Below, one piece after another: positions 48,601-51,600 of a stretch of DNA of 64,000 bases. Each line of letters starts with the position of its first letter. The first letter of the stretch is position 1. The stretch comes from Escherichia coli. Lineage in GTDB: Bacteria > Pseudomonadota > Gammaproteobacteria > Enterobacterales > Enterobacteriaceae. Made by a program: the position numbers. Where the stretch lies: the NCBI RefSeq assembly GCF_003991155.1, contig NZ_CP031293.1; one strand, written 5' to 3'.

Positions 48601-51600
48601 AAGGGCAGGGCCACTGGCTCTGCCCTTTTGCTATTCTCACCGTAACGAATCAGCGGATACCATGATTATCAAACGCACTCCTCAAGCCGCGTCGCCTCTG
48701 GCTTCGTGGCTTTCTTATCTGGAAAACCTGCACAGTAAAACTATCGATCTCGGCCTTGAGCGCGTGAGCCAGGTCGCGGCGCGTCTTGGCGTTCTGAAAC
48801 CAGCGCCATTTGTGTTTACCGTTGCGGGTACGAATGGCAAAGGCACCACTTGCCGTACGCTGGAGTCGATTCTGATGGCGGCAGGGTACAAAGTGGGCGT
48901 CTACAGTTCGCCGCATCTGGTGCGTTATACCGAGCGCGTACGCGTGCAGGGCCAGGAATTGCCGGAATCGGCCCACACCGCCTCTTTTGCGGAGATTGAA
49001 TCGGCACGCGGTGATATTTCCTTGACCTATTTCGAGTACGGTACGCTGTCGGCGTTGTGGCTGTTCAAACAGGCACAACTTGACGTGGTGATTCTGGAAG
49101 TAGGGCTGGGCGGTCGTCTGGACGCAACCAATATTGTCGATGCCGATGTCGCGGTAGTAACCAGCATTGCGCTGGATCATACCGACTGGCTGGGGCCAGA
49201 TCGCGAAAGTATTGGTCGCGAGAAAGCAGGCATCTTCCGCAGCGAAAAACCGGCAATTGTCGGTGAGCCGGAAATGCCTTCTACCATTGCTGATGTGGCG
49301 CAGGAAAAAGGTGCACTGCTACAACGTCGGGGCGTTGAGTGGAACTATTCCGTCACCGATCATGACTGGACGTTTAGCGATGCTCACGGCACGCTGGAAA
49401 ATCTGCCGTTGCCGCTTGTCCCGCAACCGAATGCCGCAACGGCGCTGGCGGCACTGCGTGCCAGCGGGCTGGAGGTCAGTGAAAATGCCATTCGCGACGG
49501 GATTGCCAGCGCAATTTTGCCGGGACGTTTCCAGATTGTGAGCGAGTCGCCACGCGTTATTTTTGATGTCGCGCATAATCCACATGCGGCGGAATATCTC
49601 ACCGGGCGTATGAAAGCGCTACCGAAAAACGGGCGCGTGCTGGCGGTTATCGGTATGCTACATGATAAAGATATTGCCGGAACTCTGGCCTGGTTGAAAA
49701 GCGTGGTTGATGACTGGTATTGTGCGCCCCTGGAAGGGCCGCGCGGTGCCACGGCAGAACAACTGCTTGAGCATTTGGGTAACGGCAAATCATTTGATAG
49801 CGTGGCGCAGGCATGGGATGCCGCAATGGCGGACGCTAAAGCGGAAGATACCGTGCTGGTGTGTGGTTCGTTCCACACGGTCGCACATGTCATGGAAGTG
49901 ATTGACGCGAGGAGAAGCGGTGGCAAGTAAGTTTCAGAATCGGTTAGTGGGCACGATCGTGCTGGTGGCGCTGGGGGTGATAGTACTTCCAGGGCTGCTG
50001 GACGGGCAGAAAAAACATTATCAGGATGAGTTCGCGGCTATCCCGCTGGTGCCGAAAGCGGGCGATCGCGATGAGCCTGATATGATGCCAGCCGCCACTC
50101 AGGCGTTGCCGACGCAGCCGCCGGAAGGCGCAGCGGAAGAGGTGCGGGCAGGTGATGCCGCAGCACCGTCGCTCGATCCGGCCACTATTGCAGCCAATAA
50201 CACCGAGTTTGAACCGGAACCTGCACCGGTCGCCCCACCGAAGCCGAAACCGGTGGAGCCGCCGAAACCGAAGGTTGAAGCACCACCTGCGCCGAAGCCA
50301 GAACCGAAGCCGGTCGTGGAAGAAAAAGCAGCGCCAACGGGTAAAGCTTATGTTGTGCAACTGGGCGCGCTGAAAAATGCCGATAAAGTGAATGAGATTG
50401 TCGGTAAGCTGCGCGGTGCCGGTTATCGGGTTTATACGTCGCCATCCACGCCAGTGCAGGGTAAAATTACCCGTATTCTGGTTGGGCCGGATGCCTCGAA
50501 AGATAAGCTGAAAGGTTCGCTGGGTGAGTTGAAGCAACTTTCTGGCTTAAGCGGCGTGGTAATGGGTTATACACCGAATTAATATGGTCTTGCCTGATGC
50601 GACGCTGGCGCATCTTATCAGGCCTGGGCTGGAGTAGCCCCGTAGGTCGGATAAGGCGTTTACGTCGCATCCGACAGTCGTTGCCTGATGCGACACTGGC
50701 GTGTCTTATCAGGCCTACGCTGGAGCAGCCCCGCGCCGCATCCGACACGCATTGCACGATGCCGCAAAGGCATAAAAAGTCGATGGCGTTGAATATTTTT
50801 TCAGCGCCATTTTTATTGATGCGTGGGAAGGAAATCCCTACGCAAACGTTTTCTTTTTCTGTTAGAATGCGCCCCGAACAGGATGACAGGGCGTAAAATC
50901 GTGGGACACATATGGTCTGGATTGATTACGCCATAATCGCGGTGATTGCTTTTTCCTCTCTGGTTAGCCTGATCCGCGGCTTTGTTCGTGAAGCGTTATC
51001 GCTGGTGACATGGGGTTGTGCTTTCTTTGTTGCCAGTCATTACTACACTTACCTGTCAGTCTGGTTTACGGGCTTTGAAGACGAACTGGTTCGAAATGGG
51101 ATTGCCATCGCGGTACTGTTTATCGCTACCCTGATCGTTGGTGCTATCGTGAACTTCGTGATAGGCCAGTTGGTGGAGAAAACGGGGTTGTCAGGCACCG
51201 ATCGGGTGCTGGGCGTCTGTTTCGGTGCGTTGCGCGGTGTGTTGATTGTTGCCGCCATTCTCTTCTTTCTCGACTCCTTTACCGGGGTGTCGAAAAGCGA
51301 AGACTGGAGCAAATCACAGCTGATCCCGCAGTTCAGTTTTATCATCAGATGGTTTTTTGATTATCTGCAAAGCTCGTCAAGTTTCTTGCCCAGAGCGTAA
51401 GTGCTCTGAGATGTGGCTTAACGAGGAAAAAGACGTATGTGCGGTATTGTCGGTATCGCCGGTGTTATGCCGGTTAACCAGTCGATTTATGATGCCTTAA
51501 CGGTGCTTCAGCATCGCGGTCAGGATGCCGCCGGCATCATCACCATAGATGCCAATAACTGCTTCCGTTTGCGTAAAGCGAACGGGCTGGTGAGCGATGT

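What the first reader, a model, noticed from the sequence alone, without database searches (positions are those of the whole stretch)
50583..50911. REP/BIME array followed by the PurR-controlled cvpA-purF promoter
At least three REP units in alternating orientation fill the dedD-cvpA gap. They are followed by a canonical PurR box (acgcaaacgttttctt) overlapping the promoter region, with a tagaat -10 element. This is expected core regulation and is recorded for completeness.
Basis: partly seen in the sequence, partly recalled or inferred. Interest (0 to 1): 0.15.

Follow-up and report, generated by a model that had tools for sequence, protein, structure and literature searches.

The report
Known REP array and purF promoter

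Summary
The dedD-cvpA gap (50583-50911) carries three complete REP units in alternating orientation: Z2 at 50592-50627 (+), Y at 50642-50675 (-) and Z2 at 50683-50718 (+). A fourth, truncated Y unit lies at 50734-50746. Together they form a BIME-2 array. The 16-bp PurR box ACGCAAACGTTTTCTT sits at 50840-50855 and is the best PurR-matrix hit in the 64 kb window. It is the same motif reported under the PurR ChIP-chip peak for cvpA-purF-ubiX in K-12. The -10 TAGAAT (50863-50868) has an upstream TG, and the K-12 start site maps to 50875/50876, so the box covers -36 to -21.

The REPs occupy under half of the gap. A conserved intrinsic terminator (50782-50818) lies between the array and the promoter, so the array belongs to the folC-dedD 3' UTR and not to the cvpA leader.

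The array varies in copy number among E. coli genomes (gaps of 167 + 91n bp, n = 0-4). This window has the two-unit form with a 20-bp deletion, found in 72 of 5,426 genomes.

One feature remains unexplained: an inverted repeat spanning the cvpA start site whose arms co-vary across Enterobacterales. Novelty: already known. Interest is low.

The parts
49920..50582 (+). dedD coding sequence (stop TAA at 50580-50582), last gene of the folC-dedD unit
   Evidence: ORF list. RefSeq annotation of the 100% identical strain CREC-544 and of K-12 gives a 663-bp dedD.
50592..50627 (+). REP unit 1, Z2 type. Its tail is degenerate (GGCCTGG in place of GGCCTAC). The stem starts 9 nt after the dedD stop codon.
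   Evidence: Z2 consensus match with 3 mismatches; 0 matches in shuffles. Internal inverted repeat I5.
50642..50675 (-). REP unit 2, Y type, inverted, joined tail-to-tail to unit 1 through a 14-nt linker
   Evidence: Y consensus match with 4 mismatches, including a compensatory C>T / G>A pair. Inverted repeat I6. Part of the naRNA4 hit.
50683..50718 (+). REP unit 3, Z2 type, head-to-head with unit 2 across a short linker. It contains the only exact IS621 target ATCAGGCCTAC in the window (50708-50718).
   Evidence: Z2 consensus match with 2 mismatches. IS621 target search and published target sequence.
50734..50746 (-). Truncated fourth REP (head half of a Y unit). The other half was lost in a 20-bp deletion relative to the intact two-unit allele.
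   Evidence: Half-site scan. Alignments with K-12, E. coli E69 and E. albertii, which carry TAGGTCGGATAAGGCGTTTA at this position.
50759..50773 (+). Small hairpin ATGCC-GCAAA-GGCAT immediately right of the BIME insertion point
   Evidence: Read from the sequence. It forms in the RNA fold. Invariant in all E. coli alleles.
50782..50818 (+). Intrinsic terminator of folC-dedD: 12-bp stem, 6-nt loop, then TTTTTATT. An A-run on its 5' side makes it look bidirectional.
   Evidence: Terminator scan and RNA fold. Invariant in E. coli alleles. The hairpin plus T-tract is kept, with different stem sequences, across Enterobacteriaceae and Morganellaceae.
50840..50855 (+). PurR operator ACGCAAACGTTTTCTT, at -36 to -21 relative to the start site at 50876
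   Evidence: Consensus and matrix scans. Same 16-mer as the K-12 ChIP-chip motif. Conserved at -69 to -74 from the ATG in most Enterobacterales sampled, extremes -87 (Dickeya) and -77 (Tatumella).
50860..50868 (+). Extended -10 element TGtTAGAAT (TG at 50860-50861, hexamer at 50863-50868). The -35 position (50839-50845, TACGCAA) is a poor match and lies inside the operator.
   Evidence: Read from the sequence. The block TTTTCTGTTAGAAT is nearly invariant from E. coli to Proteus, Providencia, Photorhabdus and Dickeya.
50875..50876 (+). Transcription start of cvpA-purF-ubiX, transferred from K-12
   Evidence: K-12 start site at -37 (nuclease mapping) and -36 (directed 5' mapping) from the cvpA start codon (PMC2760140). 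The window is identical to K-12 here.
50868..50895 (+). Inverted repeat spanning the start site: arm 1 TGCGCCC (50868-50874, end of the -10 plus the discriminator) and arm 2 GGGCGTA (50889-50895). Its function is unexplained.
   Evidence: Single-sequence folds in 18 taxa. Anchored-stem shuffle test, combined p about 7e-4. Present with new arm sequences in 5 of 6 further lineages.
50912..51400 (+). cvpA, first gene of the PurR-controlled operon (purF 51437-52954, ubiX 53049-53618). A GGGA Shine-Dalgarno-like motif lies at 50903-50906.
   Evidence: ORF list and RefSeq annotations.

Best explanation
The interval is the E. coli dedD-cvpA intergenic region and holds three functional layers, read 5' to 3'.

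(1) A BIME-2 array of alternating Z2 and Y REP units lies in the 3' untranslated region of the folC-dedD transcript. It is a mobile, amplifiable repeat of the kind propagated by the REP-associated tyrosine transposase. Its copy number differs between strains, and here it has two units with one REP half deleted. Its likely local effects are inferred, not shown. They are a very stable RNA structure at the mRNA 3' end, possible damping of dedD translation because the first REP begins 9 nt after the stop codon, and a gyrase binding site.

(2) A conserved intrinsic terminator ends folC-dedD transcription.

(3) A sigma-70 promoter follows, with an extended -10 (TGtTAGAAT) and a weak -35. It starts transcription at 50875/50876 and drives cvpA-purF-ubiX. 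The PurR dimer, loaded with hypoxanthine or guanine, binds the 16-bp operator at -36 to -21. This blocks RNA polymerase, so the first step of purine synthesis is shut off when purines are plentiful.

Shown for K-12, whose promoter region (50840-50911) is identical to the window's: PurR occupancy in vivo and the start site. Shown here: sequence identity, motif strength, conservation and polymorphism. Inferred: repression by occlusion in this strain, and every functional effect of the array.
For: - REP and BIME identity. The BIME-2 definition and the copy-number variability of such arrays are in PMC3333891.
- Comparison with K-12: the gap is 258 bp in K-12 and 329 bp here. The extra 71 bp fall inside the array, and the sequence from the terminator to the ATG is identical apart from one base.
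- Allele series: gaps of 167, 258, 329, 349, 440 and 531 bp. The window's deletion junction occurs in 72 of 5,426 genomes.
- Terminator.
- PurR box. It is the ChIP-chip motif AAGAAAACGTTTGCGT for cvpA-purF-ubiX, bound in the presence of adenine (PMC3159470).
- PurR sites generally lie between the -35 and -10 elements and block initiation.
- Start site: -37/-36 from the ATG.
- Phylogenetic footprint: the box plus TTTTCTGTTAGAAT is nearly invariant across Enterobacterales while the flanks diverge.
- In Yersinia pestis, purF is derepressed in a purR mutant (PMC10673613).
- The folded 3' UTR RNA has -112 kcal/mol, z = -5.6.
- REPs within 15 nt of a stop codon lower translation (Liang 2015, as summarised in PMC12306157).
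- BIME-2 arrays are enriched for gyrase cleavage sites (PMC6379681).
Against: - No experiment was done on this strain. PurR binding and the start site are transferred from K-12.
- The purR gene is outside the window.
- A natural E. coli allele with no REP at all exists, and other genera have none here. The array is therefore dispensable and any function is modest.
- The simple promoter scanner did not call this promoter because its -35 is poor. This fits an extended -10 promoter but means the call rests on published mapping.
- The matrix score of 21.9 bits was reached by 4 of 200 simulated 64 kb sequences. The statistics alone are good but not overwhelming; position and conservation carry the argument.
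Confidence: 0.93

Rival explanations
1. The BIME is a transcription attenuator for cvpA. Alternative REP pairings would act as terminator and anti-terminator in a cvpA leader and tune purF expression.
For: A survey of premature terminators grouped the element upstream of cvpA, gatY and rbfA into a BIME-based candidate attenuator class (PMC2965389). The REPs can pair either within a unit or between units.
Against: The mapped cvpA start site lies about 130 bp downstream of the array, and a strong terminator sits in between. The array is therefore not in the cvpA leader. It is absent from one E. coli allele and from all other genera sampled, while the promoter block is invariant. At most it could modulate read-through from dedD.
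Confidence: 0.04
2. The REP pair at 50645-50715 is a gene for a nucleoid-associated non-coding RNA of the naRNA4 type, which would bind HU and help condense DNA.
For: The Rfam naRNA4 model scores 76.6 bits against a gathering score of 59.5. naRNA4 derives from a Y/Z2 REP cluster, and most REPs are transcribed (PMC4550694 abstract).
Against: The model in effect describes any Y-Z2 BIME-2 unit, so the hit restates that this is a BIME-2. No promoter of its own was found. The unit is missing in the zero-unit allele.
Confidence: 0.1
3. A sigma-54 promoter lies in the spacer and gives nitrogen-linked transcription of cvpA-purF.
For: In vitro genomic SELEX with the RpoN holoenzyme gave a peak assigned to the cvpA/dedD spacer at 31-32% relative intensity (PMC8743547).
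Against: No site in 50400-50950 combines the GG and GC cores with more than 7 of 12 consensus matches; the best GG/GC-core site has 5 of 12 mismatches, and the same holds for K-12. The peak centre falls at the dedD end next to the REPs, and the terminator lies between it and cvpA.
Confidence: 0.03
4. The repeats and the box are chance resemblances without biological meaning.
For: None beyond the fact that 4 of 200 simulated sequences reached the PurR score.
Against: No shuffle matched the Z2 consensus. The region is orthologous to the K-12 control region, where binding and the start site were measured. The box is invariant across an order of bacteria.
Confidence: 0.01

Closest known systems
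E. coli K-12 purF (cvpA-purF-ubiX) control region with the purF operator
   Same: The sequence from the terminator to the cvpA ATG is the same apart from one base. The 16-bp operator is the one under the PurR ChIP-chip peak. The -10 is the same, and the start site is at -37/-36.
   Different: Nothing differs in the promoter. The only differences from K-12 are one SNP at 50827 and the upstream REP array.
BIME-2 arrays (alternating Y and Z2 REP units; gyrase-binding class)
   Same: Units are Z2 and Y in alternating orientation, with a short head-to-head linker and a longer tail-to-tail linker. The array is tandemly amplified with a 91-bp period, its copy number varies between strains, and it is extragenic but transcribed.
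   Different: The last Y unit is half-deleted (20 bp) and the first Z2 tail is degenerate. Gyrase binding at this particular array was not examined.
naRNA4 / REP325 (Rfam RF02564)
   Same: The Y-Z2 unit fits the covariance model above its gathering score.
   Different: This is a different locus with two units rather than six. No evidence exists for a discrete RNA or for HU binding.
Natural IS621 (bridge-RNA recombinase) target sites in REPs
   Same: REP unit 3 carries the exact wild-type target ATCAGGCCTAC. In strain B25FEP an IS621 copy sits in this same BIME, with its end abutting CTAC of a Z2 unit.
   Different: The window itself has no insertion.

Membership tests
REP (repetitive extragenic palindrome), Y and Z2 types | An imperfect palindrome of about 35 nt matching the Y or Z2 consensus, with the conserved GTAG/CTAC tetranucleotide at the foot | tested here: met
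   Z2 matches with 3 and 2 mismatches and a Y match with 4 mismatches. CTAC/GTAG is present in units 2 and 3 and degenerate (CTGG) in unit 1. The consensus sequences are as quoted.
BIME-2 | Alternating Y and Z2 units in inverse orientation, with a short head-to-head linker, in tandem copies | tested here: met
   The order is Z2(+) Y(-) Z2(+) half-Y(-), with a 91-bp period. The definition is from PMC3333891.
BIME-2 | [quoted passage not shown] | tested here: met
   Gaps of 167, 258, 329/349, 440 and 531 bp in complete E. coli genomes.
BIME-2 | Binding and cleavage by DNA gyrase | not testable with these tools
   Known for the class (PMC6379681). Data for this locus were not available.
PurR operator (pur regulon) | A 16-bp imperfect palindrome matching ACGNAAACGTTTGCNT with a central CG | tested here: met
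   2 mismatches to the full palindrome. 21.9 bits with a leave-out matrix, within the range of the training sites, 12.0-25.5 bits.
PurR operator (pur regulon) | Placed so that bound repressor overlaps the promoter of a purine gene | tested here: met
   The box lies at -36 to -21 relative to the K-12 start site. The general rule is stated.
PurR operator (pur regulon) | Occupied by PurR in a corepressor-dependent way | not testable with these tools
   Shown by ChIP-chip for the identical K-12 sequence, only with adenine added. Not measured in this strain.
Intrinsic (Rho-independent) terminator | A G+C-containing hairpin immediately followed by a T-run on the transcribed strand, downstream of a gene | tested here: met
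   12-bp stem with 5 G-C pairs, then TTTTTATT. It forms in the fold. Conserved with changed stems in other families.
naRNA4 (RF02564) | Score at or above the Rfam gathering threshold | tested here: met
   76.6 bits against 59.5. This reflects BIME-2 content; whether it functions as an RNA was not tested.
Sigma-54 promoter | TGGCAC-N5-TTGCW with GG and GC cores 10 bp apart | tested here: not met
   The best candidates have 4 mismatches without the cores, or the cores with 5-7 mismatches.

The most novel reading that the evidence does not exclude
The inverted repeat spanning the cvpA start site (50868-50874 pairing with 50889-50895) may be a selected structure whose 5' arm is the promoter's own discriminator. 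Transcripts that start at the cvpA promoter begin inside the repeat and cannot form the hairpin. Only RNA arriving from upstream, such as read-through past the dedD terminator, could form it. It would then act as a promoter-embedded back-up terminator or insulator. That would keep purF expression strictly under PurR control without affecting the operon's own mRNA. The evidence does not exclude other roles, including an antisense RNA structure or a DNA-level effect on open-complex stability.
Probability: 0.2. Interest if true: 0.4.

Novelty: already known. Interest (0 to 1): 0.1.

Why it matters
As a finding it matters little. It confirms textbook regulation of the first committed step of purine synthesis and a typical REP array, so it serves as a positive control for the scan.

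Three small points have some value:
- The locus shows a clean allelic series of a BIME-2, from 0 to 4 units plus a decayed form. The unit boundary falls at the TTGCC|TGAT sequence that the REP-associated transposase cleaves in vitro, which makes this a convenient natural system for studying BIME gain and loss.
- The array contains an exact natural target of the IS621 bridge-RNA recombinase, and that site is occupied in at least one strain.
- The classic purF promoter carries a co-varying inverted repeat across its start site that the known start site does not explain.

Tried and rejected
- A first degenerate REP pattern with a fixed 4-nt loop found nothing because Z2 loops are longer. The Y consensus at up to 3 mismatches also found nothing. 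A scan allowing more mismatches recovered the Y unit at 4 mismatches.
- RNAalifold on MAFFT alignments of the leader and of the terminator returned 0 and 3 pairs, because the aligner put the arms of distant families out of register. I fell back on single-sequence folds and anchored-stem shuffles. The strict ungapped terminator rule passed only 48 of 68 sequences. Of the 20 failures, all but L082 (Providencia alcalifaciens), where no convincing terminator hairpin was seen, are visibly terminators with bulges or with stems that run into the T-tract; three of them (L021, L061, L093) use a different hairpin.
- Genome-wide start-site tables could not be read: one paper had no supplement held, one file was cut before 2.43 Mb and one paper was not held. 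The original purF papers and Liang 2015 are also not held. The start site came instead from a comparison table in PMC2760140.
- A sigma-54 promoter suggested by SELEX data was rejected for lack of a motif.
- A 99-codon ORF across the REPs (50597-50896) was dismissed as a translation of repeats.
- A short ATG-initiated frame at 50884 was dismissed because the ATG is not conserved (GGACG in Citrobacter).
- A pyrC-like start-site switching mechanism was considered for the inverted repeat. It was rejected because arm 1 ends before the earliest plausible start position.
- I recalled the similarity of the discriminator GCGCC to that of rrnB P1 from memory and did not test it. The literature search on this point gave nothing specific.
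Full report
Context. The window is Escherichia coli chromosome. A 601-bp query around the finding matches 5,425 of 5,426 complete E. coli genomes, always between dedD and cvpA, and matches strain CREC-544 at 100%. The ORFs are accD, folC, dedD (49920-50582), cvpA (50912-51400), purF (51437-52954) and ubiX (53049-53618). The finding's coordinates, 50583-50911, are exactly the dedD-cvpA intergenic gap.

The REP observation. The Z2 REP consensus at up to 3 mismatches matches only two places in the 64 kb window, 50592-50627 (+) and 50683-50718 (+). No match occurred in 100 shuffles. The Y consensus matches 50642-50675 on the minus strand with 4 mismatches. Two of these are a compensatory C>T / G>A pair in the stem. 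A head-half remnant lies at 50734-50746 (-). The repeat finder reports a 53-nt direct repeat at a 91-bp spacing and the expected internal palindromes. Rfam's naRNA4 family, which is derived from a Y/Z2 REP cluster, hits 50645-50715 at 76.6 bits against a gathering score of 59.5. The consensus sequences I used are the same as those quoted in the IS621 bridge-RNA paper.

Classification of the array. The unit order is Z2(+), tail-to-tail linker, Y(-), short head-to-head linker, Z2(+), linker, half-Y(-). This fits the published definition of a BIME-2: Z2 and Y units in tandem copies with a short linker, and a copy number that differs between strains (PMC3333891).

Polymorphism. K-12 MG1655 has a 258-bp gap. 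The window has 71 extra bases, all inside the array. Sampling the hit list and aligning representative strains gives gaps of 167, 258, 440 and 531 bp, which fit 167 + 91n. E. coli E69 and E. albertii have 349 bp, two intact units. The window's 329 bp is the 349-bp form minus the 20 bases TAGGTCGGATAAGGCGTTTA, which removes half of the last Y unit. An 80-nt probe across that deletion junction is fully matched in 72 of 5,426 genomes. In an evenly spaced sample of 30 hits, the 258-bp form is the commonest at 19 of 30.

The empty allele. The zero-unit allele reads ...GGTCTTGCC|CGATGCC..., and filled alleles read ...GGTCTTGCC|TGATGCG...GCATTGCC|CGATGCC.... The 91-bp unit is therefore bounded by TTGCC repeats. 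Its left edge coincides with the TGCC|TGAT site that the REP-associated transposase cleaves in vitro. Other genera of Enterobacterales have gaps of 153-280 bp; Pseudenterobacter timonensis has 362 bp, which I did not examine for repeats. In the representative alignment, sequence resembling the E. coli BIME is seen only in E. coli and E. albertii.

What lies between the array and the promoter. A hairpin with a 12-bp stem at 50782-50811, followed by TTTTTATT, is the only terminator-like site in the region. It forms in the minimum-free-energy fold of the dedD 3' UTR. That fold is unusually stable, at -112 kcal/mol with z = -5.6. The terminator is invariant in all E. coli alleles. It persists in nearly all Enterobacteriaceae and Morganellaceae sampled (no convincing terminator hairpin was seen in Providencia alcalifaciens L082), with different stem sequences such as GGCGTTGA/TCAGCGCC and GCGGCGAT/ATCGCCGC, and it is always followed by a T-tract 27-31 nt upstream of the PurR box. 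The BIME is therefore part of the folC-dedD 3' UTR.

The PurR box. ACGCAAACGTTTTCTT at 50840-50855 is the only match in the window to ACGCAAACGTTTGCGT at up to 3 mismatches. I built a position matrix from the motifs listed in Table 1 of the K-12 PurR ChIP-chip study, leaving out the two sites that fall in this window. With that matrix the site scores 21.9 bits. Training sites range from 12.0 to 25.5 bits, the next best site in the window scores 12.5, and 4 of 200 simulated sequences reach 21.9. The same study lists AAGAAAACGTTTGCGT, the reverse complement of this 16-mer, as the motif under the cvpA-purF-ubiX peak, which is occupied only when adenine is added.

The promoter. TAGAAT lies at 50863-50868 and is preceded by TG at 50860-50861, giving an extended -10. 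The -35 position falls inside the box and is a poor match, which explains why the simple scanner missed the promoter. The K-12 start site is recorded at -37 by nuclease mapping (Makaroff 1985, Nonet 1987) and at -36 by directed 5' mapping (PMC2760140). These positions correspond to 50875 and 50876, which are 7-8 nt after the -10. The box therefore spans -36 to -21. This is the usual arrangement, in which PurR blocks initiation.

Conservation of the promoter. I retrieved cvpA loci from 120 species by a pattern in the cvpA N-terminus, so the retrieval was independent of the upstream sequence. Across the 95 loci that carry the box (all of them Enterobacterales or Aeromonas), including Citrobacter, Klebsiella, Enterobacter, Pantoea, Proteus, Providencia, Morganella and Arsenophonus, the block TACGCAAACGTTTTC(T/G)TTTTCTGTTAGAATGC is almost invariant at -69 to -74 from the ATG, while the flanks diverge. 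The same holds for Photorhabdus, Serratia, Dickeya, Sodalis, Xenorhabdus and Tatumella. Aeromonas has GCGCAATCGTTTTTGT abutting TAGACT, and Shewanella has no box.

Mechanism and its limits. The reading 'PurR-controlled cvpA-purF promoter' is supported. Repression by occlusion is inferred from position and from published work on K-12. The effects of the array are also inferred. REPs less than 16 nt from a stop codon lower translation of the upstream gene (Liang 2015, as summarised in PMC12306157), and here the first stem begins 9 nt after the dedD stop. BIME-2 arrays are preferred gyrase cleavage sites (PMC6379681). Natural alleles without any REP show that the array is dispensable.

Rivals considered.
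- A published proposal holds that the BIME upstream of cvpA is an attenuator (PMC2965389). This does not fit the start site and the intervening terminator.
- A sigma-54 SELEX peak assigned to this spacer (PMC8743547) has no motif behind it.
- The naRNA4 hit mainly restates that the sequence is a BIME-2.

An unexplained feature. The last base of the -10 and the discriminator (TGCGCCC, 50868-50874) are complementary to GGGCGTA at 50889-50895. The mapped start site lies just after the first arm, so the cvpA transcript cannot contain the full hairpin. Even so, an equivalent hairpin starting at the same place occurs with different arm sequences in many lineages:
- Proteus: ATGCT.CCG / CGGAGCAT
- Providencia: GCACT / AGTGC
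- Arsenophonus: ACCTTCG / TGAAGGT
- Aeromonas: CTGCG / CGCAG

An anchored-stem shuffle test on five lineage representatives gives a combined p of about 7e-4. That test was post hoc. In a follow-up on six lineages not used to form the idea, five show the hairpin with new arms:
- Photorhabdus: GCACCT / AGGTGT
- Dickeya: GCGCCG / CGGCGC
- Serratia and Sodalis: TCGCC / GGCGA
- Xenorhabdus: GCCCGAC / GTCGGG, -15.4 kcal/mol, followed by CTGTTTTTGG

Tatumella lacks it. No Rfam family covers the region. One reading is a hairpin that forms only in RNA arriving from upstream, acting as a back-up terminator or insulator. The U-rich tail is good in some genera but poor in E. coli (UAAAAUCG), so I rate this reading as unproven. 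An in vitro study also reported sigma-70 transcription of this intergenic region in the direction opposite to cvpA (PMC3141248), so an antisense explanation remains open.

Verdict. The feature is already known, and interest is low.

Noticed in passing
window 50868-50895: An inverted repeat spans the cvpA transcription start. Its arms are the promoter discriminator and positions +14 to +20. The arms co-vary across Enterobacterales and Aeromonas, and the repeat was found in 5 of 6 further lineages. The mapped start site lies inside it, so the operon's own mRNA cannot form the hairpin.
   Followed up: partly
window 50869-50874: The base two positions after the -10 is C in every lineage examined (GC, TC or AC). 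The E. coli discriminator GCGCC resembles that of rRNA P1 promoters, a comparison recalled from memory. In vitro, cvpA-purF-ubiX grouped with ribosomal-protein and rRNA promoters as preferring sigma-70 over sigma-S (PMC3141248). This hints at stringent or growth-rate control on top of PurR.
   Followed up: no
window 50708-50718; L007 1150-1170 and L128: REP unit 3 holds the only exact wild-type IS621 (bridge-RNA recombinase) target ATCAGGCCTAC in the window. In E. coli B25FEP an IS621 copy is inserted in this same BIME, with its end ...ACAGTAT abutting CTACGCAGG of a Z2 unit.
   Followed up: partly
window 50586-50596 and 50750-50760; L006 375-395: An E. coli allele with no REP at all reads GGTCTTGCC|CGATGCC. 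The 91-bp BIME unit is bounded by TTGCC repeats, and its left edge is the TGCC|TGAT site that the REP-associated transposase cleaves in vitro. The data do not tell whether the empty allele is ancestral or a precise excision.
   Followed up: partly
window 50775-50820: The dedD terminator has an A-run on its 5' side (ATAAAAAGTCG) and a T-run on its 3' side, so it looks bidirectional. It could also stop any antisense transcript coming from the cvpA side.
   Followed up: no
window 40381-40396: The weak 'fabB-mnmC' PurR motif from the K-12 ChIP-chip table (ACCAAAGCGATGGCAT) is present unchanged. It lies inside the fabB ORF (39979-41199) and scores only 8.4 bits with the PurR matrix.
   Followed up: partly
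window 41226-41261 and 37762-37799: Two other REP-like elements occur in the window. One is a single REP at 41226-41261 (-), just after the fabB ORF; it has a Z2-type loop but Y-like arms (GTCGGATGCG...CCGACCTAC). The other is a degenerate palindromic REP-like site at 37762-37799.
   Followed up: no
window 13315-13386: A tRNA gene on the minus strand (Rfam tRNA model, 63.4 bits).
   Followed up: no
L015, L027, L044 and other Aeromonas loci, about -52 from the cvpA ATG: In Aeromonas the PurR-like box GCGCAATCGTTTTTGT directly abuts the -10 TAGACT, with no spacer. The upstream gene is not dedD. The operator is thus arranged differently for the same operon.
   Followed up: no
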